DNA of 64,000 bases, from positions 896,001 through 960,000 of the forward strand of contig CBDCNP010000002.1 in NCBI GenBank assembly GCA_965219415.1. Direction: 5' to 3'. This stretch comes from Candidatus Marinacidobacterales bacterium (GTDB lineage Bacteria; Acidobacteriota; Vicinamibacteria; Marinacidobacterales; DATDRI01). Shown here in pieces: positions 1 through 63,084 of the stretch. Numbering within the stretch: position 1 is the stretch's first letter; the number at the start of each line of letters is the position of its first letter. The notes beneath the pieces are model-generated. The model did no database searches. It had not been told where the DNA came from and worked only from the letters and a program-made list of their open reading frames with translations. Both the position numbers and the translations under genes were made by a program.

Positions 1-507
1 TGATCTCGTCTCGGTATAGCCCTCCCGACGCGCCATCATCATGGGGGTCAGTCCCCTTCTTTCGATCCTGGGGTTGGCGCCCGCGTCCAGAAGCGCCCTC
101 ACGATCTGGGGACGGCGTTCCATTGTGGCAAGCACCAGCGCCGAGGAATCATCCTCGTTCTTGAGGTTCTTGTGCGCCCCCACCTCTAGCAAGACTTGGA
201 GCGCGTCAAGATGGCCCCAGAGGGCTGCCATCATCAAGGAAGTCGTGCCGGAGCTCGTCTTGCTATTGACGTCGGCACCCCCCTCGATCGGTGTATGGAC
301 CACCGTCGCATCGCCCGTTCCGGCCGCGACATGCAATGCCGTCGAGCCGTTCTCGTCCCGAAGGTTCGGGTCTGCGCCGTCTTCCAAGAGGCCGCGTATC
401 TCGTCGGCGTCACCTTGTTTCGAGGCCTCGATCAAGGCGGTGTTGGGATCTCCCTGACAGCCTGCAAAAGCGGTTATGAAGCTTGCGAGCAGCGCGTTAC
501 GGAGCAT
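1..507 (-). CDS. Ankyrin-repeat lipoprotein (3' end runs off the window)
   Basis: Own translation of minus strand from ATG 507: MLRNALLASFITAFAGC (lipobox-like), then ankyrin repeats (GADPNLRDENGSTALHVAA, GADVNSKTSSGTTSLMMAALWGH, AGANPRIERRGLTPMMMA). Not in the ORF track because there is no stop in the window. Confidence 0.85.
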   Translation of the reverse strand, partial: MLRNALLASFITAFAGCQGDPNTALIEASKQGDADEIRGLLEDGADPNLRDENGSTALHVAAGTGDATVVHTPIEGGADVNSKTSSGTTSLMMAALWGHLDALQVLLEVGAHKNLKNEDDSSALVLATMERRPQIVRALLDAGANPRIERRGLTPMMMARREGYTETRS

Positions 508-585
508 GTCATCTAATGTACAGGCAGGCACGCGGAACGCCACAAGGTCGAACCTGCACACTTTTAGATCAGACCCTTGCTATAT

Positions 586-1353
586 TTAGGAAGCTGCCTC
601 GCCGAGCCCGGTAACAATGTAAGTACCGCTTCTCTTGTCCTTGCTGATCTTGATGAGGTCTTGCCGCGCCGCGTCCTCAAGCAACTCGTTGAACCGACTG
701 TAGCCGTAATAGGACTCGCTGAAGGATGGATTCTTTCGCTTGAGGGTCTGCTTGACCATCGAGCCCCAGATGACTTCTTTGTTTTCGCGCTCGAGCGCTT
801 CGATGGCGCCTAAGACCAGCTTGAAGCATTCCTGCTTCTTCTTTGGGAGCTTGGCCATGCCTGGAAGTGTGCGAGGCATTTGCCGGACGAGATCATCGTA
901 GTAAATAAACTCGTCACAATTCGACGCCAAAAGATCAGAGGTGGAGTTTTTGACACCCACCCCGATCACCGTCTTGTCGTTTTCCTTGAGCTTGGATACC
1001 AAGGGGACGAAATCGCTGTCCCCCGAGGCGATCACGAAGTAGTTGACGTGCTCTTTGGAGTAAGACAGGTCGATGGCGTCGACCACCATCTTGATGTCGG
1101 CGCTGTTCTTGCCGCTGTAACGTCGTTGCGGGATGTCGATGAGCTCGATGCCCGCTTCGTGGAAGGGACGCTTGAAGTCTCGATAGCTGCCCCAATCGGC
1201 ATAGGCCTTTTTGACGATGATCTTGCCCTTTTCCACCAGCCGCTCCAGGATCCGGCCGATCTCGAAGCCTTTGCCTTTGGGCTTCGAATCCCTCACCCCG
1301 AGGGCAATGTTCTCAAGGTCGACGAAGAGGGCAAGCTTTGGTTCTTCTGCCAT
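586..1353 (-). CDS. NYN domain (LabA/DUF88) protein with C-terminal OST-HTH/LOTUS domain
   Basis: FVDLEN, KNSADIKMVVDA, SGDSDFVPL motifs; C-terminal FSESYYGYSRFNELL typical of OST-HTH. Confidence 0.9.
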   Translation of the reverse strand: MAEEPKLALFVDLENIALGVRDSKPKGKGFEIGRILERLVEKGKIIVKKAYADWGSYRDFKRPFHEAGIELIDIPQRRYSGKNSADIKMVVDAIDLSYSKEHVNYFVIASGDSDFVPLVSKLKENDKTVIGVGVKNSTSDLLASNCDEFIYYDDLVRQMPRTLPGMAKLPKKKQECFKLVLGAIEALERENKEVIWGSMVKQTLKRKNPSFSESYYGYSRFNELLEDAARQDLIKISKDKRSGTYIVTGLGEAAS

Positions 1354-3226: not shown

Positions 3227-3556
3227 CTGCACCCATAACTCGAGTTAATACAAGCAATTGCGGGCTTACCGCTCGGTCGCGGGGAATCCCCGACGGCTTT
3301 AAAAGGTTGTAAACAAAGCGCTTCTTTGGCTGGGGAACCGACTTCCCGACCATTGGGGACCATTCGATGGTCCCGAGGGCCATTACAGTCCGGATTCCGG
3401 CTAGTTCGTTGATTTCTGGTAGCTTGCGCGGTTCGACTCCCCTATTTTGTATCGCGTGTCGATTCATTTGTTCGTTTATGTTGGTGGGAGGATACAACTT
3501 ATTTCTCAGACTCCCCCAACCATAACCGCCCTATAACCGAAGAGGTGGAGTTTCTC

Positions 3557-5614
3557 ATGCATCGACCGGTCAAGTACGTTGAAAAGGCTGTCACCTACGT
3601 CGCAAACGGTGCGTGGTTCGTCTTCGAGAGACTGAACCGCGTCCGTCCCAGGCCCTCGTTCACACCTAAGTGGTCGGACAAACCGCTGCAGAAGTCGTGG
3701 CAGAAGACCAAGCCAACTCTGGGCTGGCCCCGGACAACGGACTCCTTGTGTCCGAAGTGCATCCCGGAGGCGCGGGACCAGATCATCAACGGCGATGCGG
3801 ACTACAAAGTCTTCATCAACGAGAAGGTCGGAGAGATCAAGGCTCAGATCATCGAGCGTGACGGGAACATCATGATGGTCAAGGACTGCCCGCGGCACGG
3901 GCACTTCGAGGACCTCATGGCCATCGATACCGATTTCTTCGCGCACCTCGAGAAGACGTTCCCCGGTCGGGACATCCGCGCCCACAACGACTCCAAGCTT
4001 CACAATCACGGCAGCAGCACCATCAAGCACGGCCGGGGGTCGATCCTCACTATCGACCTTACCAACCGCTGCAACATGATGTGTGATCCTTGCTTCATGG
4101 ACGCCAACCAGGTCGGCTTTGTCCACGAGCTCACATGGGATGACGTGAAACAGCTCCTCGACAATGCCATGACCATCAAGCCCAAGCGCCAGATGTCGGT
4201 GCAGTTCTCGGGTGGCGAGCCTACGATGTCCCCGTATTTCCTCGATGCGGTTCGTTACGCAAGGAAAGTAGGCTACATCAGCACCCAGGCAGCAACCAAC
4301 GGGATCGAGTTCGCCAAGAGCACGACGTTTTGCCGAGAGGCCGCAGAGGCCGGCTTGCGCTACGCGTACCTGCAGTTCGACGGTATCGGAAACGCCGCCA
4401 ACTCGCACCGTCGCGTCGGCAACCTCTTCGACGTGAAGCTCCAGGCGATCGAGAACCTGTACTCCAACGGCGTCGACATCGTACCGGTCATCACCCTCAT
4501 CAACGGTATCAACAACGAGCAAGTCGGTTCGGTGGTCCGGTTTGCGCTGGATAACCCCAAGAAGATCCCGTTCCTCTCGTTCCAACCGGTGTCCTTCACC
4601 GGTCGCGACGAGGCGATCACCCCGGCGCGGCGCATGGCGCAACGCTACACGCTGTCTCACCTCGCACACGACGTGAAGAACCAGACCGGACTCGGCGAGC
4701 CGGCGCGCGATTGGTTCCCGATTTCGTTCCTAGGAACCTTCTCCGACTGGGCGGACCTCGTTCACGGTCCGGAAAAAGATTGGGGCCAGTTCGCCTGCGG
4801 CTGCCACCCGAACTGCGGCGTGGGCATGGCGGTCATGGTCGACAAGGAAACCAAGGAGCGGGTACCGGTCACGGCGTTCTTGAATGCCGATCGGCTATCC
4901 ACGGATATCGCCACCCTGAATGACGCGGCGCGAGGAAAGTTCTGGTCGGCTTTCGGCATGGCGTTGTCGGTGACGCGAAACTACGATTCGTTCAAGTCCC
5001 CGACCCACTTCACGCTCAAGGCCTTCCTCGAGAAGTTCGACAAGACCTACAACGTGACCGGAAAGAACTACGGCAAGGTCACCGGCGACCGGACCATGGC
5101 GGACATCGAGAAGCGGCGTGCCGACCGGTGGAACTTCCTGTTCATCGCCGGCATGTGGTTCCAGGATCTGTTCAACTACGACTTCCGTCGCACCGAGCAG
5201 TGCATCATCCCTTATGCCACGCAGGAAGGCGAGATCTCCTTCTGTGCCTACAACACTGGCGTTGGCTGGCGTCAGATCATCGAGAAGATGCATCAGACGG
5301 CAACCATCCACAAATGGTATGAGGAGCGCGGCCGACATCTCATCTACGCCGGCGGCAAGGAAGTCGATCTGCCATCCAATGGGCACTCTCTCGTGCTAAA
5401 CCAGACCGACGTCGATCACGGTGTGCAAACCGATCTCGACGAGAAGGGTATCGCCAAGAATGCTCGCGACGAGAAGCGGCAGGCCCGTGACGCGCAGCTG
5501 GTCAAGACGCCTGAGGACGAGCGGATGGCAAAGCTCTACGAGGAAGTAGTCCTCAAACAGACGCCGAGCACACCGCAACAAGACATCGTGAAGATCGATC
5601 AGATCGACGTCTAA
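3557..5614 (+). CDS. tes: Radical SAM protein, tetraether lipid synthase (Tes/GDGT-MAS, MJ0619-like) family
   Basis: N-terminal TDSLCPKC...KDCPRHG metal site, CNMMCDPC radical SAM motif, SGGEPT, YLQFDG, FQPVSFTGR, CGCHPNC, GMWFQD, CIIPY...SFCAYN; GAGGTGGAG RBS before ATG 3557. Confidence 0.8.
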   Translation: MHRPVKYVEKAVTYVANGAWFVFERLNRVRPRPSFTPKWSDKPLQKSWQKTKPTLGWPRTTDSLCPKCIPEARDQIINGDADYKVFINEKVGEIKAQIIERDGNIMMVKDCPRHGHFEDLMAIDTDFFAHLEKTFPGRDIRAHNDSKLHNHGSSTIKHGRGSILTIDLTNRCNMMCDPCFMDANQVGFVHELTWDDVKQLLDNAMTIKPKRQMSVQFSGGEPTMSPYFLDAVRYARKVGYISTQAATNGIEFAKSTTFCREAAEAGLRYAYLQFDGIGNAANSHRRVGNLFDVKLQAIENLYSNGVDIVPVITLINGINNEQVGSVVRFALDNPKKIPFLSFQPVSFTGRDEAITPARRMAQRYTLSHLAHDVKNQTGLGEPARDWFPISFLGTFSDWADLVHGPEKDWGQFACGCHPNCGVGMAVMVDKETKERVPVTAFLNADRLSTDIATLNDAARGKFWSAFGMALSVTRNYDSFKSPTHFTLKAFLEKFDKTYNVTGKNYGKVTGDRTMADIEKRRADRWNFLFIAGMWFQDLFNYDFRRTEQCIIPYATQEGEISFCAYNTGVGWRQIIEKMHQTATIHKWYEERGRHLIYAGGKEVDLPSNGHSLVLNQTDVDHGVQTDLDEKGIAKNARDEKRQARDAQLVKTPEDERMAKLYEEVVLKQTPSTPQQDIVKIDQIDV

Positions 5615-5642: not shown

Positions 5643-5680
5643 AAGAAGAGCCCGCCGGAAACGGTGGGCTCTTCTATTTT
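5643..5680 (+). terminator. Rho-independent terminator after tes
   Basis: GAAGAGCCCGCCG-GAAA-CGGTGGGCTCTTC followed by TATTTT. Confidence 0.8.
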
Positions 5681-14437: not shown

Positions 14438-17400
14438 CTACTTGCAGGGGAGGAACCGGACCGTAGTCTCCATCTCCTCAAGCACGTGTGCCAACGCCGA
14501 TATCGTCTGGTCGATGTCTTCTTCCTTCGCGCCGTGAGATAAAGACAGCCTTACCGCGCAGTGCGCCTCCTCCTCGGTTCGTCCCATTGCCATCAGCACA
14601 TGAGTCGGTTTGGGAGAGCCCGATTTGCATGCGGAGCCCGATGATAACGAGATCCCGTGTTGGTCGAGCGCCACCACCAGCGATTCACCGCGTAACCCCG
14701 GCAGGGTCAAGTTGAGAGTGTTGGGAAGCCGGTTGTCGGTAGGGCCGTTCAGTCGAGCCTTCGGCACTAGTCTTCTGATACCTGCCTCCAGTTTATCTCT
14801 CAGAACCGTGAGGTTGTCGCCGTCCTTGACGGCCTGAAGGGCGAGCTCCGCTGCCTTGCCCAATCCCACGATCGCCGGCACGTTCTCGGTCCCCGCCCGG
14901 ATACCATTCTCCTGCTTGCCACCGTGGATGAGCGGCTCGAGGCGGACGCCGGTCTTGACGTAGAGCACACCAATACCCTTGGGCCCATGGAACTTGTGAC
15001 CCGACAGGCTGAGCATGTCCACGTCGAGATCCTCCACATCGACCTTGATCTTTCCGACCGCCTGAACAGCGTCGGTGTGGAACAAAACGCCCCGCTCGTG
15101 CGCGATGGCACACAACTCTTTGATCGGAAGAATCGTCCCCACCTCGTTGTTGGCCATCATGATGGAGACGAGAACGGTGTCGTCTCGGATGGCTTCCTTC
15201 AGTTCCTCAGGAGCCAGCCAGCCGTCTTCGTCAACGTTCAGGTACGTGACTTCGTAGCCGAGTCTCTCCAAGAAGCTACCGGCCCCCAGAATGGCAGGAT
15301 GCTCGATCGAGGTGGTCACGATGTGCTTGCCCTTGTCCTGATGCGCGAAGGCAACGCCCTTGAACGCCAGGTTGTCCGCTTCCGATCCCCCGCCGGTGAA
15401 TATGATCCTCCGCGGCCGGGTGTTGATGAGCTTGGCCACTTGACGGCGTGCATTATCGACCGCTTCCCGGGCATCCCGACCCACCCCGTGGATGCTCGAA
15501 GGGTTGCCAAGGACCGCCTCCAAGAAAGGAAGCATGGCTTCGCGCACTTCATCGGCGACCCGGGTGGTCGCGTTATTGTCGAGATAGATTCTCTTCTGCG
15601 GTTTCTTCCTTTCTTGGGGCGAAAAGAGTTGCGGTTCGCAAACGCTTCCCGAGCGCACCGCGGTGCGTCGCGTCGCCTCGGTACCCTCTTCGGTTCGAAC
15701 CACCTCACAAAGAAGCGCTTTATAGACCGGAAACCCGGAGATCTCGTCATAGTTTGTTAGGTCCGTCAGCTCGTTGACGTTCCACTCCTGCCATGCCTTG
15801 GGACCCACTGGTCCGCCGCCGCCCATGTTGCACTCGACGGCGCCCTTCACGATGTCTTGGGTGACCCGAGCCCGGAACGGAACGGCCCCTCGAGGGGTTC
15901 GCACTTCCACGAGATCGCCGGTCTTGATGCCCCGCTCCTCCGCATCCTCGAGGTTGATTTCCACGGTGGGCTCGGGGTTGTCCTTTGCCAATCCGTCGAC
16001 CCCATGGTGCTGGGAGCGAAAATCGGTATGAGGGCGGGCACCAGAGTTGAAAACGAGGGGGAAGCTCGCTGCCACATCGGGACTGGCCAGCGGTCCTTCC
16101 TTCGGCTCGACGTACTTTGGTAGCGGTTCGTACCCGTAGTCCTCGAGGACCGTGGACCAGATCTCGAACTTACCTGTCGGAGTATCGAAACCCGGCTTCC
16201 CGTCGTTTCGAAGAGCCCCTTTCTCCCATTTCTTGTACTCCACCATCGCGGTGGGGATCTTGACCGACCCCCCCTTGGCCTTGACCTCCTCGAGAGTATG
16301 ACCCGACCCTTCGAGGGCGAGGCGGATCATCTCCTCTTCGGTCTGAGGGTAGAGATGCCCGTAGCCTAGCCGCTCAGCCAGCTCCGCCATGATCAGATAG
16401 TCGTTGCGAGATTCCCCGACGGGGTCGATCACTTTCTCTCTCAGCTTGAAGATGGGACCGTAGGTCATGTAGGAGTCGATCTCGAACATCGTGGTCGCGG
16501 GAAGCACAACATCTGCGTACGCGGAGTCGGCAGTGAGCTGGCGGTCGATGCACGCCACGAAGTCCAGCTTCGAAAGCATCTCCCGCCAGGTCGTCGTCTC
16601 GGGCCAGGAAGTCAGGAGCGACGCGCCATGAATAAGTAGACCTCGAATGCGATAAGGCTCTCCCTTCAAAACGGCGTCCAAAAGCCCGCTGGCGTGGGAC
16701 TCCTCGCGATAATGTGTGTAGATGGGAAACTTATCCCGTGCCACCGCCAGATCGGTGTCCGGGTTTTCTTGATTCGCAGACCGGTTGATGGGGAAATGGC
16801 TATCGAGCATGCCGAGCCCGATGCCACCGGGAACATCTAGTTGACCGGCCAGGGCGAACAATGTGTGTACTGCACGAATCGCCTGGATTCCAGTGTTGGA
16901 ATACTCGAGTCCGGTGTACATCACCGGGCAGGCCCCCGTCGCGTAATTCAGTCGTCGCGCCAGCTCCCGGATCGTCTCCGCCGGAACGCCGGTGATGGAT
17001 TCTGCGACCTCGGGACGGAAGTGCTGTACGTAGGTCTTCAGCTCTTCGAACCCGTGACACCAATTCTCGGCGAAATCCTCGTCGTAGAGTTCCTCGTCGA
17101 TCATGACCTCGATCATGCTAAGAGCCAGAGCGCCGTCGGTACCAGGGCGGATCGGAATCCACCTGGCGTTGGTACGCGTTGCGGTCTCGGTGTTGCGCGG
17201 ATCGATGACCACGATCTCTGCCCCACGCTTCGCCGCGGCTTCCAGTCGGTGCATGTCGAGGGGAGGAGAATCGGTAGCCGGGTTAGCCCCACACACGATC
17301 AACATCTCGGCATTTTCCATGTCGGTAAACATGTTGACGAGCATGCGTCCCATGGTGACGTGAGGAGCGATAATGGCGAAGGACACGTAGCAGAGTGCTC

Positions 17401-17878
17401 CGACTCCCATCGTGTTCGGGGAACCGAAGGGGAACAAAACACTGGAGGCGGAGGACACACCAACCCCTTTGGGTTGGAACGTGTCGCAAAGGGATAATTC
17501 GAATGAGCCGCGACCGGTGTAGACTGCGACCGCCTCTGGGCCTGATTCTTCTTTGATCTGGGTTAGGTTCTTGGTGATGAGGTCGTAGGCTTCGTCCCAG
17601 GTGATGCGCTCGAACTCATGGCTGCCCTTGGGGCCTACGCGCCGCATGGGGTATTTGAGGCGGTTTTCGGAGTAGATGATCTCGGGAGAATGCTGACCCC
17701 GACGACAAATCATTCCGAGGGGATGGGAGGCGTCCTGCTTGATATTCACCAACTTCCCGTCGTCTAGACCCACTTCCACCCAGCAGCCGGCTGGACAGAT
17801 TCCGCAGATGGCGCTTTTCCACTTAAGCTCCTTCTTCTGTTGTTCGATTGGATCTAGGACGGTTTCACTTTGACTCAT
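14438..17878 (-). CDS. Molybdopterin (bis-MGD) oxidoreductase fused to IscS/NifS-type cysteine desulfurase
   Basis: N-terminal CGICPAGC...CRRG 4Fe-4S motif, NRLKYP, ADVVLPA, C-terminal MGD-binding domain (FRSQHH); then IYLDNNATT, GNPSS, HTDAVQ, SGHK (PLP Lys), SSGSAC (catalytic Cys), all in one uninterrupted frame. Confidence 0.92.
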   Translation of the reverse strand: MSQSETVLDPIEQQKKELKWKSAICGICPAGCWVEVGLDDGKLVNIKQDASHPLGMICRRGQHSPEIIYSENRLKYPMRRVGPKGSHEFERITWDEAYDLITKNLTQIKEESGPEAVAVYTGRGSFELSLCDTFQPKGVGVSSASSVLFPFGSPNTMGVGALCYVSFAIIAPHVTMGRMLVNMFTDMENAEMLIVCGANPATDSPPLDMHRLEAAAKRGAEIVVIDPRNTETATRTNARWIPIRPGTDGALALSMIEVMIDEELYDEDFAENWCHGFEELKTYVQHFRPEVAESITGVPAETIRELARRLNYATGACPVMYTGLEYSNTGIQAIRAVHTLFALAGQLDVPGGIGLGMLDSHFPINRSANQENPDTDLAVARDKFPIYTHYREESHASGLLDAVLKGEPYRIRGLLIHGASLLTSWPETTTWREMLSKLDFVACIDRQLTADSAYADVVLPATTMFEIDSYMTYGPIFKLREKVIDPVGESRNDYLIMAELAERLGYGHLYPQTEEEMIRLALEGSGHTLEEVKAKGGSVKIPTAMVEYKKWEKGALRNDGKPGFDTPTGKFEIWSTVLEDYGYEPLPKYVEPKEGPLASPDVAASFPLVFNSGARPHTDFRSQHHGVDGLAKDNPEPTVEINLEDAEERGIKTGDLVEVRTPRGAVPFRARVTQDIVKGAVECNMGGGGPVGPKAWQEWNVNELTDLTNYDEISGFPVYKALLCEVVRTEEGTEATRRTAVRSGSVCEPQLFSPQERKKPQKRIYLDNNATTRVADEVREAMLPFLEAVLGNPSSIHGVGRDAREAVDNARRQVAKLINTRPRRIIFTGGGSEADNLAFKGVAFAHQDKGKHIVTTSIEHPAILGAGSFLERLGYEVTYLNVDEDGWLAPEELKEAIRDDTVLVSIMMANNEVGTILPIKELCAIAHERGVLFHTDAVQAVGKIKVDVEDLDVDMLSLSGHKFHGPKGIGVLYVKTGVRLEPLIHGGKQENGIRAGTENVPAIVGLGKAAELALQAVKDGDNLTVLRDKLEAGIRRLVPKARLNGPTDNRLPNTLNLTLPGLRGESLVVALDQHGISLSSGSACKSGSPKPTHVLMAMGRTEEEAHCAVRLSLSHGAKEEDIDQTISALAHVLEEMETTVRFLPCK

Positions 17879-18075
17879 GGAAATCCCCTCGATGCGACGG
17901 CGAGGCCGCCGCACGGCCGCTTGTTTCTTCGATTAGGTAAATTCAATGTCTCGTTTTCGTACCGCGAAAATTCAAAGCCGTCTAACCTAGGCGATCGTAA
18001 TTGGAAACGATGAGCGACGCAAGTGGGTTGAGTGACTCGCACTCATATTCAATTTCGGCGATACTTCAGCCGATC

Positions 18076-23506: not shown

Positions 23507-24857
23507 TTGATGCCAACGAACCGGATCCTGCTCATGCTCGTGTTCTTGGTTGCGACAGGTCAGGGAACGCGCGCCACCCAAGAAAGTAAGAAGGAAGAGA
23601 CCGCCGAGGAGTTCATCGCCCGCGTCAATAAGGAGCTCGACGATCTCGGCAAGGAGGCCGCCGCCGCTTGGGTCCGTGCAACCTACATTACCCCCGATAC
23701 CGCGGTTCTGGCCGCCAAGGCTCAATCGCGTTTTCTCGAGTATCAGAATCGAGTGGTGGAAGAGTCGAGGCGCTACCTGGATGAAGATGTGGGGGCCGAT
23801 GCCGCCCGATCGCTCAGGCTGCTCAAGTTGCAGGATACGCGCCGGCCGGCGCCCGCGGATGCAGCGAAGCGCGAGGAGCTGACCGACCTGTACCAGGAGC
23901 TCACCGGCGCCTACGGCGAAGGCAAGTATTGTCCCGGAGGTGAGGACACTTGCAGGACGTTACCGGAGTTGGAACGGGTGCTCGCCGAAAACCGAGACTA
24001 TGACGAGCTATTGGACGCTTGGCAGGGGTGGCGGACCGTCTCGCCGCCCATGCGTGGGTCCTACACTCGGTTCGCAGAGCTGGCGAACGAGGGCGCGCGA
24101 AACCTTGGGTTCCAAGACCTCGGACAAATGTGGCGCTCCGCCTACGACATGAGCCCGGATGCATTCGCACAAGAGACGGAGCGGCTTTGGAGCCAGGTAG
24201 AGCCCCTATACGAGCAGCTGCACTGCTACGTCCGAGCTCGGCTGGGCGAACATTACGGAGAGGGGACAAAGTCCCCGCCGATGGACCCATCCCCGCCCAT
24301 CTCCTCGGAAATATGTGGGCGCAGGAGTGGGCCAATATCTACGACCTGGTGGAGCCCTATCCCGGTGTGGCGAATCCGAATGTGGGCGAGGCCCTCGTCG
24401 ATCAAGACTACGATGCGGTGCGCATGACGCAACTCGCAGAGGGCTTTTTCGTCTCTTTGGGCATGCCCAACCTTCCGGAGACCTTCTGGGAGCGATCCCT
24501 GTTGACCAAACCGCGTGACCGCGAGGTCGTATGCCACGCCAGCGCCTGGAACATGGACTCGGGAAAGGACGTGCGCATCAAGCAGTGTATCGAGCCCACT
24601 TCGGATGAGCTCGTGACCGTGCATCATGAACTGGGGCACGTCTACTACTACCTGTACTACGGCCACCTGCCCGCTCTCTATCAAACAAGTGCCAATCCCG
24701 GGTTCCATGAGGGTATCGGCGACACGATCCCTGGCAGGACACCTTGGAGGAGCTCACCGGCGGACGTGAGATGGATGCCAGCGCTATCATCGACTATTTC
24801 CAGCCGTTGATGGCGTGGCTAGAAGAGCAGAATCAGGGACGAACTTGCGGCTGGTGA
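23507..24857 (+). pseudogene. Peptidase M2 (ACE/peptidyl-dipeptidase A), frameshifted and internally deleted
   Basis: [38 protein letters not shown], then a direct jump to the C-terminal [11 protein letters not shown]...[16 protein letters not shown] in another frame. Confidence 0.85.
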
Positions 24858-25097: not shown

Positions 25098-28000
25098 ATG
25101 GCTAGGAGAAAGAACATGCCTTTCCGATCTGCAGCGAAAGTCCGTTCGCTCCTCCTCGGACTCAGCATCCTGTTGCCCGCTTCTTCTTCCTCCCTTGCGC
25201 AAGTTGCTGCCACCGATCCGAATGCGTTTCCGTTCTACAACTGGGCGGGCGCATCGGGTGATACCAGTGGCGGCCTCGTCAAGCCCTCGCTGTTTACCGG
25301 AGCGGTTGTTGTACCCATCCATATCGTGGTGCCGGCGGGCACAGGAGGCATTCAGCCGTCCTTATCACTCGCTTACAACAGCCGTCAGGGTCGCGGAAAC
25401 GCCGGAGTGGGATGGAGCCTGGGGCTTTCGAAAATCATTCGCTCCACGAAGTACGGGGCGGATAAGGCTCAGGAGTGGACGCCCTCGGAGGCGGTTTACC
25501 TCTACGGGGATCAGGAGCTCATTCGCGGCGTAGGGGAGTCCGATCCCTTTGGCTGCCCAGCTATTCGCTACCACCCTAAATCGGAAAACTTTCAAAAGAT
25601 CCTCTTCTGCGCAACGGAAGACTACTGGACCGTCCTCGGTAAGACCGGAACGAGGACGACGTTCGGGCGACACGCCGACACTCGCCATAGCAAGCTCGCC
25701 CAGGACGGCGTGACCTTCGAGTACTTCCTCGACGAGTTGACCGACCCGCACGGTCTGTCGTGGCAGGCGACTTACTCCCCCACGACCGCCTACAGCGCTC
25801 CCCGGTTGGATCGGTTGGACTGCACCTTCCACGACGGCAGCCCCTTGGGTGAGCCTCGGCGCGTAGAGATTCGGTGGGGACCAAGGCCCGATGGGAGGCC
25901 CGAGTACGTCAACCTCCGCTATGGGTTTCCGCTGTTGCAAGACCAGCGCATTGATCGATCCGGGTCATGCTCGGGTCGCGCCGGGTACGCGAATACGTTC
26001 TCGGGTACGACGCCGACAAGGATTCGGGGAACGGAGAACAGTACAGTCCGGATAGCGGCGCCAGCATGTTGCGCTCGGTGACGCTGTGCGGAACGAATGA
26101 CGACTCGTGTCTCCCGCCGCAGCTCTTCGAGTATCAGTACAACGCCCCGACACCTGGCTTCAACGAGGCACCCGTCCAGCAGCCATTCCCAAAGAGCTGG
26201 GGCGCCTCTACGCCCAACTATGGGACGCGTCTAGTGGAAGTGCGGGCGAGGCCATTACGTTAGGTGATCTCATGGACATCAACGGCGACGGTCATCTCGA
26301 CGTCGTCGAGGCCTACTGCCCTGCGTCCTCGACACTCGAGTGCAAGCCACCCGCGGTGAAGTGGCGAATTTGGCCGGGAGCCGGAGCTTCGGGATTCAGT
26401 TCGAGCCCAATCTCCTGGCCCGGTGCCGAGCACTACCTGAGACGCTCGCCTTGGGATCCCAATGACTCTGGCTCAGAGCAGGATGTTAGCTGGGAACGTT
26501 GTCGACATGAACGGCGATGGGCTTCCCGATCTGTTCACTGGTCGTTCGCTCTATCTCAACACCGGCAGTGAATTCGAAAAGAAGCCATGGAGCTGGCCAA
26601 ATGGAAACACCCAAGATTGGGTTCGCGACTACCGGCGAGTCGGCGGCACCGGCACATTCGTGGTCGCGGACCTGGTCGATGGCAATGGGGATGGGTGTCC
26701 GGACCGATTCGACATCGACGCGACGGCGGGCGTCTGGCGGTACTGGCGCAACCGGCTTTGTGATCCCGTGCCCCACGCGGGCTACGAAACCCCGCCGCAC
26801 ATGGGACTGGGGACCGGTAGTGCCCCCTACCTACCTGGGGCGCGATGTCTCCTTCACAGGGCCGATGGGCGATGGGTCTTTGTTTTACTCGACGGACGGG
26901 TTCATTGAGCTCAACGGGGACGGGCTACTCGACTTTCTATATCAGGGAAGGCTCTACCTCGGCACCGGTCGCGGCTTCCGACCGGAGACGGGCACAACCT
27001 ACGCCTCTGATCTAGTGGAGATCTTGACGGCGTTCAAAGAGATCACATCACCGTTTCTCAAGAAGTATTGGTCGAATGAGCTCGACCTCCCCACGCGTCG
27101 CCAGCTTTACGGTTTTCTCGACTTGAATGGCGACGGCCGCCGGGATTTCGTGCGCCTCGAATCGTCAGCCCATTGGAAGGTGTGGCTCAATACCGGAAAC
27201 GGTCTCAAAAGCGAGCCTCTCGAATGGCCGATGCCGATGGTATTGCAGAACGATGCCTTCCCCGGACTTCAGAAAAGCATCATGCAAGGAACCAACCCAG
27301 TCCGCCGTGTTTACGGCTGGCAACGTCTATTCGATCTGGACGCTTCTGGAGCCACGGATTTGGTCAACTATCCCCTGCTCGGTGGGTTCACACACTTCAA
27401 TTTCTTCGCCAACAAGGGCCCCGAGCCCGAGCTCCTCGTCGAGGTGACGAACGGGGTCGGGGGGTCCATTCATCTCTCTTACACGGCGAGAGTGGGTGGT
27501 GGGCTAGAGGTCCAGGTAGGAGGGGAAACTTTTGAAGGCGGCAACCTGCACTTCCCGGTGCACGTGCTTTCGAAGATGGAAGCCGACGATGGCTACGGCA
27601 ACGTCTATGCCAGCCGCTATCGATATTGGGACGCTTATTATGATTCAGAAGAACGCCGTTTCCGAGGTTTCGGTCGCGTGGAAGTCACGAGCAGCGACAA
27701 CCTTGGCGCGGCTCCTAACTACAGCCTCCACGTCTTTGCCAACGGGGATCCCTCACGCCTTATCCAACCGCCGCATACATCACAGAGTTGGCCCGACCAC
27801 CCATCGCTTGCCGGGCGGGGATTCGCGATTCGAACGGGTCCGGATCGTGGCACCATCGAATACGAACCTCGGCGATGTGACCTCGGGCGATACAACCCGC
27901 GTCGAGACACTCGTGAAATACGCCACCGAACCGCCGCTCTGGGCGGCGAGCGAGTCCAACTATGATGCCTACGGCAACGTAGTACGGTTGCAGGGACCGG

Positions 28001-31000
28001 AGGGAGAGCTTGCTACGATTGACTACTCGCCGGGGAGCTTCACCTATCCGATCCGACAAACGACAACTGTGACCAAAGGGAAGAGCCCCGGAGAACAGAT
28101 TACGCTGGTGAGCACTTCGCAATGGGACGATCGGTTCGGCGTCGTCGTAGAAACAGTTGACCCGAATCGGCGGCGGGTAGAACGCGAGCTCGACGGTCTC
28201 GGGCGGCTGGTTCTCGTGACCAGCACGCCATCGTCGGATCCGACCGCCCCGCCCATCACACTCCAATCCTTCGAGTACTCGCTCGGCACCCCGTTGGGCT
28301 CTAACTATCTGGAGCGAACCAGCGCCATAAACGAGGGTGAATACGTCGTGAGCCGAACCTATTTTGATGGGATGCTACGTTCCGTTCAAGAGAAGACACC
28401 GGCAGCCGATGGACAGTGGACGACGAAACATCGACGATACGGTCTTCACGGAGTCGAAATCGAGACCCTGCCCTTTTTCACCGGCTCTAACTCCTACACC
28501 TTCCTTCCCTACCTCCCGGCGCGACCTTTATACCGCACGGCCTACGATTGGGAGGGCCGCGTCGTCAAGAAATGGCTCGAAGACTCTAATGGCAATGCCC
28601 ACTACCCGACGGCAACCGAAACGCGTCTCTGGGATACCGTCGTGACCGATCCACGAGGAAACCGAAGGACCGCTCGCCGAGACGGCCACGGGCGGATCGT
28701 GAGAATCGAGGAACAGGAGGGCTCTACCCTTCGTGCCGTAACGCGTTTCGATTACAACCGGATCGGAAACCTTGTGCAGGTTATGGATAACGCCGGCAAT
28801 ACCACCCGACTGCAGTACGACAGTCGAGGTCTCCGGCGAGCCATGGAGGATCCTGACCTTAGCAACTGCGGCAATCCATCTGACTGCCCTTGGAGGTACG
28901 CATACAACCTCAGTGGGCAGATCATCCGGCAGGTCGACGCCAAGGGCCAACACATCGACTTTTACGCTGACGAGTTGGGCCGCGTTTACCACAAGGACTT
29001 CCAGGGCGACGACGACGTCCTTTTCTCTTACGACGAGGGTCAGAACGGACTTGGACGATTGTCGTCGGTTAGAAACGGTATCGGGAACAAGGTGTCGTAC
29101 GAGTACGACAACTGGGGCCGGACGTTGCGGCACGAGCGTACCGTTGCCGACTCCACGTTCGTGTTGAACACGATCCACGACCTCCTGGGTCGGATCACCA
29201 AAGTTCAGTACCCGACCGGTGAGACCGCGGAGTACGTTTTCGACGGCGGCGGTCGGGTCAGTTCGGTCGCGTTCAACGGGGCGGACATCCTTCGCTCGGT
29301 CGTCTACGATCCCCTATCCCGTATTGTGGAGATCCAATGGGGAAACGGCCTGACAACGAATCAGGAATACGGACCGAATGAGAAGCTCAAGTCTCTTTCC
29401 GTCGGGGGCGGGGGCGACTCCCCGCTCCACCGACTCGCGTACGAGTTCGACGAGGCGGGTAACACCAAGGCCGTGTACGTCGTCGAGGAAGCCTGGCGCC
29501 GGGTCTATGCGTACGATTGGGCCGGTCGCCTAATCGATGCCCAACACCAGGATCGTGTCGTGACGCGAACTTGCCCCGAGGGGCTTTCCTGGCCGTCACC
29601 GCTTTGCGACATCTTCATTGATTGGGAGACCCTGAAGGAATGGAGATGGGAATACGACGAGATCGGAAACATGACCTACAACTCGGACTGGGATACCGCC
29701 GATCCTTTTTCGGATGGTCGGTACAGCTACGGTTCCGGCGCCGGGCCTCACGCGGTTACCCGAATCGGAACCGCGACATCACCCCATACATTCAGCTACG
29801 ACGCGAACGGATTCATGGTCGGGGAAGGCGAGTCAGTAGGTTTCGCATACGACACGGATGGCAACATGCTCAGTGTTTCCGACGTGTCGGGAGGCACTGA
29901 TCTGGTTGCACGGTTCGAATATGACGGTGACGGCACCCGGACTCGCAAGATGGTCACCGGAAGCGAAACGGAACTCGAGATCCGCTATTCCGGCACGCAT
30001 TTCGAGGAGCTTCTTGAAGACGGAGTAAGAAGTGGCAATAGGTATGTCCTCTTGGGCAATAGCCGGGTCGCACTCATCACCGATCGAAACCCATCCAAGG
30101 TGCTCTACCTCCATCCAGACGTGCAAGGCACCATCGGCCTAGTGACCGACGAAAACGGTGAGGTGGTGCTGCGTCGACAGTTCGCGCCTTACGGAGAGCT
30201 CGAGAGCGAAGAGGGCACCGATCCCGGAGTTCGTTACGGATTCACGGGCGCCGAGCACGACCGGGAAAGCGAGCTGCTCCACCTAGGAGTGCGTCAATAC
30301 CGGCCCAAGATTGCCCGCTTCGTTCAGCCAGATAGCACCGTTCCCAACCCTGATGATCCCCAGAGTCTCAATCGCTACGCCTACGCCCGTAACAACCCAG
30401 TCCGCTATACCGATCCCAGTGGCTTCCAAGAAGAAGAGGAGGACGAATACGACCCCCTCGACCGCCACGCCAACCGGGGCGAGCTGCCACCCTCACCGCT
30501 TATGCACGTAGCCGGCGAGGGACTGATGCATGCGTCCGAATACTTCTACCTGCAGACGGCAGAGTTCGACGAGAAAGTCACCGTGCCCGTAGCATCGTGG
30601 TTCGGGGAAGAAGCCTTCCGGCGCAACCCAGACATGGCCTGGGTTGAAGCCACGGTAGCCCACTTCGGTCTTTCCTTCATTACGTTCCTTCCGAGACTTC
30701 TCGCGACGCCCGCCTGGCTCAGGAGGCTCCCGGAGCAAACCGCCAACGACATCAGCGTCCTGCACCAGAGCGATGATCCAGACGCCCGGCTCGACGCATG
30801 GCTTTCTCTCGGGGGAAATGGAGCAACCCTCCTCGGGCTGGTCGCCGGAGGGGCGAAGGCCGCCCGTGGTGCAGGTGCGCGTGGCCCTAGGCTGAACCTC
30901 TCCAGGGTGGCCGCGGGAGAGCAACGCCCGATTCTGGTGCGCATTCGATATACAGAAGCGATGGCAAGAGCTGCGGGCGATGCGAACTTCCTCCGAGCGG

Positions 31001-31356
31001 CGATCGAATGGGCGCAGATGGAGGATGGCGTCCAACTACGGGTCGGCGCTCGCGCGGCAACGGACGCGACTGCCCGCGCTTGGTCCAGGCGGACCATGCA
31101 GCGTCTCGGTTTCGATATCGAGGGCAGGCAGGCGATGCATCCGGTAGACAGCATCATCAACCCCTACTTCATGCCAGAGTACGCTGGGTACTACTTTGGC
31201 AATTCGAGCGCGAATCTCTCCATGGGCGCACAGCTCGGCAACCAGTTGCGAGGCGTGCCGTCAAATACACCGGTCTTTGTCGAGTTCGTGGGGTTTCCTG
31301 CCTACGAGGTCGCGCCTGCTATAGCACCGCCGGTGGTGCCTACGACCTGGCGCTAG
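25098..31356 (+). CDS. SpvB/FG-GAP/TcdB-midN/Rhs (YD-repeat) protein with C-terminal putative toxin domain (several frameshifts 25960-27870)
   Basis: Signal peptide; IVVPAGTGGIQPSLSLAYNS..G.GNAGVGWSL (SpvB-like); DxNGDG repeats; YYDSEERRFRGFG; YD repeats; core GFTGAEHDRES...RFVQPD...NRYAYARNNPVRYTDPSG. Confidence 0.9.
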
Positions 31357-54984: not shown

Positions 54985-56334
54985 GGGTTTACGCGGATTC
55001 GTGTGGGTAAGTTCTGACGGAAAAACAGTGTAACTCATTGTGTGGAAAAGGTATCGAGTACTTCATCAGGTGCTGAAAAGTGGTCCATTTTTAGGATAGG
55101 CTAACCGAGTGAAAAATTCCCAGTCGATCCGCTCGCTGTTTGCGCTGCCAGGTTTCGTGGTTGGTGCCGGATTGAAGGGTCTATTCGGTAACCGATACGC
55201 CCGTGTCATCCAGCTCAAGAGGCGAAAAAAACAGCTGTGTGCTCTTACTGTGGGCAACGGTGCCGGGGGCGCTATGACAAGCAAGTGTGCCGGGTCCGCG
55301 ACCTGTCGTTGGCAGGCTGGCGGATCTATCTGGAATACGAGCGTTGGCGCGTCAACTGTTCTGGGTGCGGCGGTGTGCATGTAGAACACCTAGACTGGCT
55401 GGCGAACAACTCGCGCTACACCCAGCGTTTTGCGACGCATGTGGGCAAGCTGTGCCGGGATATGCCGAACAAGGCGGTGGCCGAGATGGAACGTCTGCAC
55501 CACGGTACGGTGAAGGCTCTGGATACGCTCTACATGCAAGAGCAGGTCGACCGGGCGGGGCTACCGGCGCCTCGGGCCATCGGTGTCGATGAGATCTCCA
55601 TCCGCAAGGGACATAACTATCGCGTCATTGTCAGCGACCTGGAGCGGGCGCGTCCCATCTGGGTGGGCGGTGAGGGTCGCAAAGAAACCGACATCGACTT
55701 GTTCTTCAAGGCGCTGGGCGGAAAGAAAAGCGCCCGTATCAAGCTGGCCGCCATGGATATGTGGAAGCCCTTCCGGAACTCGGTGATTCACAACGCGCCT
55801 AATGCGCGGATCATCTTCGACAAGTTTCATATCATGCGTCATCTGTCAAAGGCCCTCGATGAGGTCCGGCGCGGTGAGTACAAACGCCTCAGCGGCAAGG
55901 ACCGGTCGTACATCAAGGGGCAGCGTTACACTTTGCTTTCCCGGCGGGAGAACCTGAGCCTAGACGGTCGCCGCGCACTCAAAAAGTTGCTCCAGGCCAA
56001 CCGGCGCCTGAACACCGCCTATATTTTGAAGGAGGCCTTCGGGCAACTCTGGGATTACCGCACCGAACGCGGCGCTCGCGCCTTTTTCACCCGTTGGAAA
56101 GACAGCCTCAAATGGCAACGCCTGCATCCGTACCAGAAGTTCGCCGGTATGATTGAGTCCCATTGGGATGGTATCGCCTCCTACTGTCATCCGGAGAACA
56201 AAGTCAGTCTCGGCCTAGTTGAAGGGGTCAACAACAAAATCCGTGTTCTGCAACGACGCGCCTACGGCTATCGCGACGAGGAATATCTCAAGCTGAAGAT
56301 CGTGGCGGCTTTCCTTCCGCCATTACCCAGAAAT
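54985..56334 (+). mobile_element. ISL3-family insertion sequence (left IR and transposase; right end displaced)
   Basis: IRL GGGTTTACGCGGATTCGTGTGGGT at 54985-55008, preceded by 8-bp TAAAAGTG (54977-54984). Confidence 0.9.
55109..56334 (+). CDS. ISL3 family transposase (frame change at A7 run 55225-55231; last ~9 codons displaced)
   Basis: CxxC...CxxC zinc finger, IGVDE, AMDMWKPF, DKFHI, EGVNNKI..L.RRAYGYR. Confidence 0.92.
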
Positions 56335-62763: not shown

Positions 62764-63084
62764 ATCATCAACGGCCACTCCTCGTTTTGAAACCCCGCCC
62801 GGGATCAGGGCAGCACTATCGTGCCGACGATGCGTCCCGGTTTCGACGTTAAAGGATCCGTCGGAACTGACAGGCTCTGCCTCTCCTCGGAGTACCGCGT
62901 CACCCGTCGCGTCTGCGAATCTCCCGCGACCTCCGGTGAAGAAATAACCCCTTCTGATCGCCGAATAACTGTCTAATCAATGGAACAAAAAAAGTTCTGG
63001 GGTCAAAGGGGTTCCGAGCGGCCGCGGCAAGCTGCCTTCAGGCGGGGCCCTGATGTACATTTGGCGAAATCTAAGGGTCTCGGT

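What the first reader, a model, noticed from the sequence alone, without database searches (positions are those of the whole stretch)
3557..5614. Bacterial tetraether lipid synthase (Tes) homolog: candidate membrane-spanning lipid/brGDGT producer
Seen: CxxC...CxxH N-terminal metal site, radical SAM triad, CxHPxC, MxFxD and FCAYN motifs. Established: these mark the archaeal Tes/GDGT-MAS family that couples lipid tails C-C, and homologs occur in brGDGT-producing Acidobacteria. Also seen: the Cys-rich CPxxCGLC segment I recall from archaeal Tes is absent here and replaced by a His-rich stretch (AHNDSKLHNHGSSTIKHG), with ~55 aa N-terminal and ~100 aa C-terminal extensions. Inference: a mechanistically different bacterial variant.
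Basis: partly seen in the sequence, partly recalled or inferred. Interest (0 to 1): 0.7.

Follow-up and report, generated by a model that had tools for sequence, protein, structure and literature searches.

The report
Acidobacterial Tes-like lipid-coupling radical SAM enzyme
This intact gene encodes a strongly conserved acidobacterial relative of the archaeal enzyme that welds two lipid tails into a membrane-spanning lipid; it lacks one of that enzyme's iron-sulfur clusters and is a published but still untested candidate for making the bacterial lipids behind a widely used palaeoclimate proxy.

Summary
Window 3557-5614 (+) is one intact 685-aa ORF. It has the rubredoxin-like CxxC...CxxH site, the radical SAM CxxxCxxC triad, CGCHPNC, MWFQD, CIIPYA and FCAYN. 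A His-rich loop sits where archaeal Tes/GDGT-MAS carries the three Cys of its N-terminal [4Fe-4S] cluster.

Its best matches are Tes (NCBIfam 309 bits, below the 450 cut-off) and GDGT-MAS (PDB 7TOL, E 2e-62; AlphaFold model TM 0.85-0.87). In a tree it falls in a separate clade in which every member lacks the N-cluster Cys.

Orthologs (62-77% identical) were found in:
- 135 of 151 Terriglobia genomes
- 60 of 61 Blastocatellia genomes
- 35 of 39 genomes of the window's own class (probably Vicinamibacteria)
- 0 of 61 Holophagae genomes

This mirrors the published distribution of iso-diabolic acid.

The gene stands alone and ends in a terminator-like hairpin. The genome holds an ElbD-type ether-lipid cluster elsewhere and no Ger-type domains.

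Most likely (about 0.6) it couples iso-branched lipid tails tail-to-tail. No experiment exists. Bacterial Tes homologs have been in print since 2022, and this scan has already reported the same family in other genomes, so the interest is moderate.

The parts
3547..3550 (+). Shine-Dalgarno-like GGAG, 6 nt before the ATG at 3557
   Evidence: Upstream sequence printed; orthologs begin MH(K/R)P, which supports the ATG at 3557.
3557..5614 (+). Intact gene for a 685-aa Tes/GDGT-MAS-like radical SAM protein (P0001)
   Evidence: Translation without stops. Tes HMM 309.1 bits, E 4.7e-92. 7TOL E 2.2e-62. AF2 pLDDT 86.5. Foldseek 7TOM/7TOL E 4e-38/2e-36.
3557..3727 (+). N-terminal extension (residues 1-57) with an amphipathic helix at residues 4-28; absent from canonical Tes
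   Evidence: Alignment A1. Helix 4-28 modelled with pLDDT about 90. Hydrophobic moment 1.75 with mean hydropathy about 0; no TM-like segment (highest 19-aa Kyte-Doolittle mean 1.12).
3728..3922 (+). Zn-ribbon / rubredoxin-like domain with C65, C68, C111, H114 and a roughly 25-aa insertion relative to canonical Tes
   Evidence: Pfam Zn_ribbon_HMPTM, residues 58-122, E 2.5e-13. All four ligands present in 84 of 84 orthologs. Maps to native C9/C12/C33/H36 of GDGT-MAS.
3980..4033 (+). His-rich loop (residues 142-159) in place of the [4Fe-4S]N Cys motif CPxxCGxCxxH
   Evidence: Alignments. H143, H149, H151, D139, D145 present in 84 of 84 orthologs; H158 in 70 of 84 (Tyr in 14). Besides the last 14 residues, this is the only internal stretch modelled with low confidence (pLDDT 50-58).
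4058..4546 (+). Radical SAM core (residues 168-330) with C172, C176, C179 at 4070-4093
   Evidence: Pfam Radical_SAM E 6.1e-17; the triad is present in 84 of 84 orthologs.
4769..5266 (+). C-terminal auxiliary-cluster domain (about residues 405-570): CGCHPNC (C420), GMWFQD (M533), CIIPYA (C549, Y553), FCAYN (C563)
   Evidence: Aligned to the C-terminal domain of 7TOL. M533 corresponds to native M439 and Y553 to native Y459 (my count; residues named in Lloyd 2022). All present in 84 of 84 orthologs. Which three Cys are the ligands is inferred from conservation.
5294..5611 (+). C-terminal extension (residues 580-685), charged and partly helical
   Evidence: Alignment A1. Helices at 584-591, 636-647 and 652-665 with pLDDT 70-90; residues 672-685 below 50. 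15 K+R and 20 D+E in 106 residues.
5644..5675 (+). Terminator-like hairpin (14-bp stem, 9 G-C pairs) followed by ATTTTGCTT, 30 nt after the stop codon
   Evidence: This is a consensus match only: 3 sites were found in the region against 2.5 expected from shuffles.

Best explanation
The gene encodes a three-cofactor member of the Tes/GDGT-MAS superfamily. It belongs to a clade confined, as far as seen, to Acidobacteriota.

Proposed mechanism, by analogy with GDGT-MAS:
1. The radical SAM cluster (C172/C176/C179) cleaves SAM to a 5'-deoxyadenosyl radical.
2. That radical abstracts a hydrogen from the terminal carbon of an iso-branched (iso-C15-type) chain of a glycerolipid held in a hydrophobic pocket.
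3. The carbon radical is parked on a sulfide of the C-terminal [4Fe-4S] cluster (C420/C549/C563, with labile M533 and Y553 nearby).
4. A second SAM-derived radical on a second lipid tail closes a C(sp3)-C(sp3) bond. The product is an iso-diabolic-acid-type membrane-spanning chain.

The rubredoxin-like site is kept. The surface [4Fe-4S]N cluster is not, so electrons probably enter by another route.

Shown here: the sequence, the conservation of the ligands, the fold, the clade and the distribution. Inferred: the substrate, the product and every chemical step. In this genome any ether bonds would come from an ElbD-type cluster elsewhere on the chromosome, not from a Ger-type reductase.
For: 1. 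Homology and fold.
- Tes is the best NCBIfam family (309 bits, covering 2-484 of 486 profile positions).
- GDGT-MAS is the only strong PDB match by sequence (E 2.2e-62; next is MoaA at 5e-5).
- GDGT-MAS is also the only strong match by fold (TM 0.85-0.87 normalised to the target, E 4e-38; next 9e-9). The model has pLDDT 86.5 and pTM 0.88.

2. Catalytic residues. All are kept, and all are present in 84 of 84 orthologs.

3. Strong purifying selection. Identity is 62-77% across three classes. The clade's branches in the tree are very short.

4. Distribution. Orthologs at E <= 1e-150 were found in:
- 135 of 151 genomes of the class of Acidipila rosea (132 of 148 without three unpublished genomes)
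- 60 of 61 genomes of the class of a Blastocatellia-labelled MAG
- 35 of 39 genomes of the window's own class (threshold 1e-40, but all 35 are <= 4e-244)
- 0 of 61 genomes, even at E <= 1e-40, of a class whose RecA is nearest to Holophaga/Geothrix proteins
Published lipid surveys report iso-diabolic acid in subdivisions 1, 3, 4 and 6, and not in Holophaga, Geothrix, Thermotomaculum or Thermoanaerobaculum (passages; Table S21).

5. No rival enzyme is known. No mss homolog was found in the Acidobacteria screened by Sahonero-Canavesi 2022.

6. Single copy. It is the only Tes-like gene in this 8.05-Mb genome.

7. Context in this genome. An ElbD-type cluster is present.

8. Possible transcription. 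Contigs identical to parts of the ORF occur in two RNA libraries labelled sponge metagenome (X12 and X17). None cover the flanks. A 2026 preprint reports tes plus elbD in sponge-symbiont Acidobacteriota, and C30-31 membrane-spanning monoethers in the sponges.
Against: - No experiment on any bacterial Tes homolog was found. This was stated as untested in 2025 and 2026 and my searches found nothing further.
- The protein scores below the curated Tes cut-off and lacks a defining cofactor site, so activity cannot be assumed.
- No lipid gene is a conserved neighbour. In 21 loci compared, with the gene resolved in 17 by a crude ORF picker, nothing is shared across families.
- Sahonero-Canavesi 2022 recorded Tes homologs in only 3 of 14 iso-diabolic-acid-producing Acidobacteria and proposed another pathway. 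I argue this is a threshold effect, because identity to canonical Tes is 26-33% against their cut-off of 30%. I could not check their named strains.
- The distribution rests on three positive classes and one negative class, which amounts to few independent events. Class names rest on MAG labels and on a RecA similarity search.
- DNA carry-over in the RNA libraries is not excluded.
Confidence: 0.6

Rival explanations
1. It is a lipid-modifying radical SAM enzyme, but it does different chemistry from omega-omega tail coupling. Possibilities are an intramolecular macrocyclisation, a mid-chain cross-link (as Gms makes) or ring formation on already coupled lipids. Under this reading another, unknown enzyme makes iso-diabolic acid.
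For: - The clade is separated from canonical Tes by a fully supported split (SH-aLRT 100) and scores below the Tes cut-off.
- GDGT-MAS itself makes both macrocyclic archaeol and GDGT (abstract and passages).
- Some genomes carry a second copy at about 50% identity, and there are rarer divergent paralogs. This shows the family can diversify in function.
Against: - The C-terminal cluster, the labile Met and the Tyr tied to the coupling mechanism are invariant.
- The distribution follows iso-diabolic acid itself, not a rarer modification.
- It is the only Tes-like gene in this genome.
Confidence: 0.18
2. The substrate is not a membrane lipid. An example is a cofactor or pterin methylation, as in the historical annotation of MJ0619 (HMPTM), which some databases still attach to these proteins. 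A peptide or other small-molecule substrate is another possibility.
For: - Sources name relatives '7,8-dihydro-6-hydroxymethylpterin dimethyltransferase'.
- The Pfam domain still bears the name HMPTM.
- There are no lipid genes next to the gene.
Against: - Lloyd 2022 could not corroborate the pterin activity and showed lipid coupling, with lipids bound in the structure (passages).
- The model superposes on the whole of GDGT-MAS, including the C-terminal domain next to the lipid pockets.
- Methanopterin biosynthesis is not expected in Acidobacteria (my own knowledge, not tested here).
Confidence: 0.08
3. It is a catalytically altered or inactive relic that is kept for a structural or regulatory role.
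For: - One cofactor site of the family is lost.
- Related divergent proteins have lost further sites. P0137 of Terriglobus roseus lacks the three C-cluster Cys, and P0148 lacks the radical SAM triad.
Against: - All remaining metal ligands are invariant in 84 of 84 orthologs, and identity is 72-76% across classes. This is the pattern of an active enzyme under strong constraint.
- The three genomes that carry the P0137-type paralog also carry the standard form.
Confidence: 0.03

Closest known systems
Archaeal tetraether synthase Tes / GDGT-MAS (M. jannaschii MJ0619, PDB 7TOL/7TOM; NCBIfam NF045702)
   Same: - Rubredoxin-like CX2C...CX2H site, radical SAM triad, C-terminal cluster domain with the labile Met and the conserved Tyr.
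- Same overall fold (TM 0.85-0.87).
- Probably the same kind of C(sp3)-C(sp3) tail coupling (inferred).
   Different: - The three Cys of the N-terminal auxiliary [4Fe-4S] cluster are absent; a conserved His-rich loop takes their place.
- 56-aa N-terminal extension, about 25-aa insertion in the Zn ribbon, and about 100-aa C-terminal extension.
- 26-33% identity, 309 bits against the 450-bit cut-off, and a separate clade.
- The host makes bacterial fatty-acid lipids, so the substrate must differ (inferred).
Published 'bacterial Tes homologs' of Acidobacteria (Zeng et al. 2022; for example the single Edaphobacter aggregans homolog at 32% identity; WP_015897912.1 of Acidobacterium, used as 'putative Tes' in a 2026 preprint)
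   Same: Same phylum, the same proposed role, and the same untested status. The 32% identity and E 4e-61 reported for E. aggregans resemble this protein's distance from archaeal Tes (E 2e-62).
   Different: I could not fetch those sequences, so identity with this clade is not shown. The papers I read do not separate the cluster-less long form from the closer (40-42% identical) Koribacter/Solibacter type. The supplementary tree of Zeng 2022 was not readable.
Bacterial membrane-spanning lipid synthase Mss (Thermotoga, Thermoanaerobacter; Sahonero-Canavesi et al. 2022)
   Same: A radical SAM enzyme that couples fatty-acid tails into diabolic or iso-diabolic acids. This is the function proposed here.
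   Different: Only remotely related to Tes. It has been found in anaerobes and was not found in the Acidobacteria screened. No Mss sequence or model was available to me, so no direct comparison was made.
TrsS radical SAM (seleno)protein (NCBIfam NF045646)
   Same: It is the second-best family hit, covering the N-terminal half.
   Different: 201.7 bits against a cut-off of 490; canonical Tes proteins score higher on TrsS than this protein does.

Membership tests
Tes / GDGT-MAS (NF045702 equivalog) | Radical SAM CX3CX2C cluster motif | tested here: met
   C172/C176/C179; aligned to native C98/C102/C105; present in 84 of 84 orthologs.
Tes / GDGT-MAS (NF045702 equivalog) | Rubredoxin-like mononuclear Fe site, C9X2C12X20C33X2H36 | tested here: met
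   C65, C68, C111, H114; Pfam Zn_ribbon_HMPTM E 2.5e-13. The spacing is longer here because of an insertion of about 25 aa.
Tes / GDGT-MAS (NF045702 equivalog) | N-terminal auxiliary [4Fe-4S] cluster ligated by C73, C77, C80 and a His | tested here: not met
   No Cys at these positions in this protein or in any of the 15 members of its clade in the tree. Only the His position is kept (H158, in 70 of 84 orthologs).
Tes / GDGT-MAS (NF045702 equivalog) | C-terminal auxiliary [4Fe-4S] cluster with labile Met439 and conserved Tyr459 | tested here: met
   M533 and Y553 align to native M439 and Y459 (my count). C420, C549 and C563 are conserved candidate ligands, present in 84 of 84 orthologs. That a cluster is actually bound is not testable here.
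Tes / GDGT-MAS (NF045702 equivalog) | Score above the curated family cut-off | tested here: not met
   309.1 bits against 450. Nine representatives that score 463-638 bits form the other side of the tree.
Tes / GDGT-MAS (NF045702 equivalog) | Overall four-domain fold | tested here: met
   Foldseek 7TOM/7TOL E 4e-38/2e-36, TM 0.85/0.87 normalised to the target. The region of the N-cluster domain is modelled with low confidence.
Tes / GDGT-MAS (NF045702 equivalog) | Catalyses tail-to-tail C-C coupling of lipid chains | not testable with these tools
   Needs expression or a deletion, followed by lipid analysis.
Mss (bacterial membrane-spanning lipid synthase) | Sequence homology to the Thermotoga / Thermoanaerobacter Mss | not tested
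   No Mss sequence or profile was on hand. The other weak radical SAM hits in the genome are MoaA and unrelated families.
TrsS (NF045646) | Score above the curated cut-off | tested here: not met
   201.7 bits against 490.

The most novel reading that the evidence does not exclude
This cluster-less clade is the long-sought iso-diabolic acid / brGDGT tail-coupling enzyme of aerobic Acidobacteria. In this reading its invariant His/Asp loop (D139, H143, D145, H149, H151, usually H158) replaces the oxygen-labile surface [4Fe-4S]N cluster of archaeal Tes. The loop would act as a mononuclear metal site or a docking site that provides a different, oxygen-tolerant electron entry. This would be a re-engineering of the enzyme that allowed membrane-spanning lipid synthesis in oxic soils, and here possibly in a sponge-associated member of subdivision 6.
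Probability: 0.15. Interest if true: 0.8.

Novelty: new variant of a known kind. Interest (0 to 1): 0.5.

Why it matters
brGDGTs and their iso-diabolic acid relatives underlie widely used temperature and pH proxies, yet the enzyme that couples the tails in Acidobacteria, the best-known producers, has not been identified. Mss is absent from the Acidobacteria that have been screened.

A single, near-universal, highly conserved gene whose class-level distribution follows the lipid would give geochemists a marker gene for producers. It would give biochemists a defined target. The marker would need to be a clade-specific profile, because a 30%-identity BLAST cut-off falls in the middle of this family's distance from archaeal Tes.

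It would also show how a multi-cluster radical SAM enzyme works with one cluster fewer in aerobes.

The idea itself is already in print, and this scan has met the same family in other genomes. The value here lies in the sharpened, testable case rather than in a discovery.

Tried and rejected
- Conserved operon. I fetched 20 ortholog loci with 8 kb of flank on each side and clustered their ORFs. No neighbour is shared across families. A crude longest-ORF picker lost the gene itself in 4 of 21 loci, so 17 were compared. One subgroup of 4 loci has a divergent NfuA-like Fe-S carrier gene next to it. That is suggestive only.
- Ger/PlsA in the own genome.
  - PF06050 gave nothing, but its control did not ring in Thermotoga, so that search says nothing.
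  - PF09989 and PF01869 gave nothing and their controls did ring in Thermotoga.
  - So no Ger-type domains were found in a genome that is 96% complete.
- B12-binding domains. Eight hits were found and not followed up, so nothing can be said about Grs-like or methylase genes.
- Mss. It could not be searched, because no model or sequence was available.
- Named strains with known lipids. The supplement of Zeng 2022 gave no hits for acidobacterial orders and one of its files is images only.
- The Terriglobus roseus protein P0137 as a counter-example. It lacks the C-cluster Cys. However, its relatives were found in only 3 of 401 genomes of that family, and all 3 also carry the standard form. T. roseus itself was not in the samples.
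- Protein atlas. It returned only the family's own clusters.
- Literature search with the term 'bacterial Tes'. It was swamped by 'bacterial testing'.
- RNA runs X18 and X19. The pieces laid are 95-99% alike, so they come from relatives and not from this organism.
- Promoter scan. No sigma-70-like site was found upstream. The consensus may not apply to this phylum.
Full report
**What is there**

Window 3557-5614 (+) is a single open frame of 685 codons.
- A GGAG lies six bases before the ATG.
- A terminator-like hairpin with a 14-bp stem lies 30 bases after the stop (a consensus match only).
- Orthologs start with the same MH(K/R)P(V/I)KY, so the ATG at 3557 is preferred over the GTG at 3545.

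Pfam finds a Zn_ribbon_HMPTM domain (residues 58-122) and a Radical_SAM domain (residues 168-330).

There is one small correction: 'CxHPxC' is really CGCHPNC.

**Comparison with the solved enzyme**

- The best NCBIfam family is Tes, at 309.1 bits and E 4.7e-92, covering profile positions 2-484 of 486. This is below the curated cut-off of 450. TrsS is second at 201.7 bits against a cut-off of 490.
- The only strong match among solved structures is GDGT-MAS of M. jannaschii (7TOL, E 2.2e-62); the next is MoaA at 5e-5.
- An AlphaFold2 model built on a 40-sequence alignment has mean pLDDT 86.5 and pTM 0.88.
- The model matches 7TOM and 7TOL with E 4e-38 and 2e-36, and TM 0.85 and 0.87 normalised to the target. 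The next hit is at 9e-9.

Lloyd et al. 2022 (abstract and passages read) describe four cofactors:
- a rubredoxin-like Fe (C9, C12, C33, H36);
- a surface N-terminal [4Fe-4S] cluster (C73, C77, C80 and a His);
- the radical SAM cluster;
- a C-terminal [4Fe-4S] cluster with a labile Met439 and a conserved Tyr459. This cluster holds the substrate carbon on a sulfide during coupling.

I counted along the HMMER alignment (chain number = native number + 20). The mapping is:

| GDGT-MAS (native) | This protein |
|---|---|
| C33 / H36 | C111 / H114 |
| C98 / C102 / C105 | C172 / C176 / C179 |
| M439 | M533 |
| Y459 | Y553 |
| C73 | a gap |
| C77 | S153 / S154 |
| C80 | T155 |
| His ligand H83 | H158 |

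The likely C-cluster Cys are C420, C549 and C563. This is inferred from conservation; I did not see the ligand numbers in the text.

The N-terminal cluster has no Cys ligands here, and everything else is in place.

**The family**

The word-indexed search returned 8000 of 8000 scored candidates at E <= 0.001. The best 120 listed are 75-95% identical and 677-715 aa long. Where a source name is given, it is Acidobacteriota, Bryobacteraceae, Blastocatellia and one Acidimicrobiia label.

The exhaustive search of 50%-identity representatives gave 6201 proteins at E <= 1e-3 and 563 at E <= 1e-30. The long form collapses to very few representatives.

I scored 22 full-length representatives on the Tes model:
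- nine score 463-638 bits (canonical);
- four score 421-447 bits;
- P0001 and its nearer relatives score 171-309 bits.

A maximum-likelihood tree of 27 proteins (quick IQ-TREE, midpoint root, several long branches flagged) splits with SH-aLRT support of 100.
- On one side are 12 proteins. Eleven of them carry the CPxxCGxCxxH motif.
- On the other side are 15 proteins. None of them carries it.
- Within the second side the long form (9 rows) is one group with support 99 and very short branches.
- The one canonical-side protein without the motif (P0261, 584 bits) carries candidate-phyla-radiation labels. The loss has therefore happened more than once.

Among 84 long-form orthologs (the window's protein plus 83 read from fetched loci), every metal ligand listed above is present in 84 of 84. 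In the loop that replaces the cluster:
- D139, H143, D145, H149 and H151 are present in 84 of 84;
- H158 is present in 70 of 84, with Tyr in the other 14.

That loop is the only internal stretch modelled with low confidence (pLDDT 50-58). A strongly conserved loop that cannot be modelled suggests a ligand-dependent or partner-dependent site. That is a lead, not a result.

**Who has it**

A pattern scan of one genome per species found 599 stretches with NRCNMMC or AGMWFQD, and 598 of them encode a relative. The 80 kept are 72-77% identical. Their labels are Acidobacteriaceae, Terriglobia/Terriglobales, Bryobacterales, Solibacter, Acidiferrales, Vicinamibacterales, Blastocatellia, the isolate Acidipila rosea, and one MAG labelled Bordetella, probably mis-binned.

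In a sample of the window's phylum, 237 of 401 genomes match at E <= 1e-40 (234 of 398 without three unpublished genomes). By my count of the rows, 46 of these are weak (1e-41 to 1e-137). That leaves about 191 genomes with an ortholog and 164 with no match at all.

| Class | Genomes with a match | Threshold |
|---|---|---|
| Window's own class | 35 of 39 | 1e-40 (all 35 at <= 4e-244) |
| Class of Acidipila rosea | 135 of 151 (132 of 148 without three unpublished genomes) | 1e-150 |
| Class of a Blastocatellia-labelled MAG | 60 of 61 | 1e-150 |
| Class of G036 | 0 of 61 | 1e-40 |

The RecA of G036 is 79-90% identical to proteins named Holophaga, Holophagaceae and Geothrix, so that class is Holophagae.

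The window's own class is probably Vicinamibacteria. A genome flagged 'same class' is the same record as a MAG labelled Vicinamibacterales, and a Terriglobia genome is flagged only 'same phylum'.

Published surveys place iso-diabolic acid in subdivisions 1, 3, 4 and 6, and not in Holophaga, Geothrix, Thermotomaculum or Thermoanaerobaculum (passages; Table S21, read).

The gene and the lipid therefore share their class-level distribution. The caveats are:
- these are few independent events;
- kin are not independent;
- the class names rest on labels;
- I could not test the cultured strains themselves.

**A published objection**

Sahonero-Canavesi et al. 2022 recorded Tes homologs in only 3 of 14 iso-diabolic-acid-producing Acidobacteria and suggested another pathway. 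They required at least 30% identity to an archaeal Tes. The long form is 26-33% identical to canonical Tes, so it straddles that line. This makes a threshold effect likely, but I have not shown it for their strains.

A possible counter-example is Terriglobus roseus protein P0137, which lacks the three C-cluster Cys. It belongs to a rare extra paralog. Relatives were found in 3 of 401 genomes of that family, and all three also carry the standard form at 73-74% identity.

**Context**

The neighbours in the window are unrelated to lipids: ankyrin, NYN, an AAA ATPase, a SpoIIE-type phosphatase, DUF3047, Crp, and a sigma/anti-sigma pair. Across 21 loci, nothing is conserved between families.

In the own genome (8.05 Mb, 96.3% complete, 8.45% contamination; the window lies on a 5.69-Mb contig):
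- This is the only Tes-like gene.
- No Ger-type domains were found, with working controls.
- About 1.05 Mb away on the same contig lies a 1471-aa ORF with reductase, AMP-binding, carrier and acyltransferase domains.
- Next to it are a LarA-homolog gene (813 bits on LarAH14/15/16), an epimerase, a HAD hydrolase, a divergent FabH, and a diacylglycerol-kinase-like gene.
- This is the ElbD/ElbB-type ether-lipid cluster by architecture. I did not compare it with M. xanthus ElbD by sequence.

A 2026 preprint (passages read; its supplements are closed) reports:
- elb-like clusters in sponge-symbiont Acidobacteriota of subdivision 6;
- tes co-occurring with elbD or ger in those MAGs;
- C30-31 membrane-spanning monoethers in the sponges.
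It states that the role of tes has not been validated.

Contigs of two RNA libraries labelled sponge metagenome match parts of the ORF.
- Four pieces match with no difference over 142-288 bases: 3564-3851, 3777-3962, 4745-4957 and 5143-5284.
- Further pieces lie up to position 5385.
- No contig covers 3300-3560 or 5388-5900.
This is compatible with transcription, but DNA carry-over is not excluded.

**Verdict**

The gene is a genuine member of the Tes superfamily but not of the curated Tes equivalog. It fails two defining tests, the N-cluster ligands and the cut-off score, and passes the others.

It most likely works like Tes on iso-branched bacterial lipids (confidence 0.6). The rivals are a different lipid modification (0.18), a non-lipid substrate (0.08) and an inactive relic (0.03).

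Bacterial Tes homologs and their possible role have been in print since Zeng et al. 2022. They were still called untested in 2025 and 2026. My searches found no experimental test.

This scan has already reported the same family, with the same reading, in other genomes: look-alike stretches in 74 windows, with eight reports shown.

- the class-level presence and absence counts, including the empty Holophagae;
- the invariant His/Asp loop;
- the resolution of the T. roseus paralog;
- the ElbD-type, not Ger-type, context of this particular genome.

Noticed in passing
window 25098-31356 (+): Three partly overlapping ORFs carry SpvB, TcdB_toxin_midN plus FG-GAP, and RHS-repeat / YD-shell domains. 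This looks like a Tc-like BC or Rhs-type polymorphic toxin locus that appears split over several frames. It is described only.
   Followed up: no
window 14438-17914 (-): A 1158-aa ORF fuses a molybdopterin oxidoreductase (Fe4S4, Molybdopterin and Molydop_binding domains) to a class-V aminotransferase / cysteine-desulfurase-like domain. This is an unusual fusion.
   Followed up: no
window 61310-62852, 48444-50387, 23507-24427: Several genes look split or truncated. MmgE/PrpD lies in two adjacent ORFs. An AcrB-like ORF covers only profile positions 273-865 of 1021. A Peptidase_M2 ORF covers only 2-227 of 581. These are either assembly indels or pseudogenes. The Tes-like gene itself is intact.
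   Followed up: no
window 1-1353 (-) and 55237-56508 (+): An ankyrin-repeat protein that runs off the window start, an NYN/LOTUS-domain protein, and an ISL3 transposase. RNA and DNA runs that hold the Tes-like stretch include ones labelled sponge, marine sediment and seawater metagenome. Only the two sponge-labelled RNA runs were laid.
   Followed up: partly
L116 = G000:C3:1938000-1957000 (own genome, outside the window): An ElbD-type ether-lipid cluster: a 1471-aa ORF with reductase, AMP-binding, carrier and acyltransferase domains, a LarA-homolog (ElbB-like), an epimerase, a HAD hydrolase, a divergent FabH and a DAG-kinase-like gene.
   Followed up: partly
P0137 (Terriglobus roseus DSM 18391) and P0148; loci L112-L114: These are divergent paralogs of the clade that have lost further cofactor sites. 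P0137 lacks the three C-terminal-cluster Cys, and P0148 lacks the radical SAM triad. The P0137 type was found in 3 of 401 genomes of its family, always beside the standard form.
   Followed up: partly
genomes (for example G768, G777, G919, G939): Some Terriglobia and Blastocatellia genomes carry a second long-form copy of 660-675 aa at about 50% identity to the window's protein. Its ligands were not examined.
   Followed up: no
L017, L018, L019, L028 (upstream of the ortholog): In one lineage a NifU plus Fe-S_biosyn (NfuA-like) gene lies directly upstream in divergent orientation. NfuA-type carriers are known (recalled, not checked) to rebuild sacrificial auxiliary clusters of radical SAM enzymes.
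   Followed up: partly
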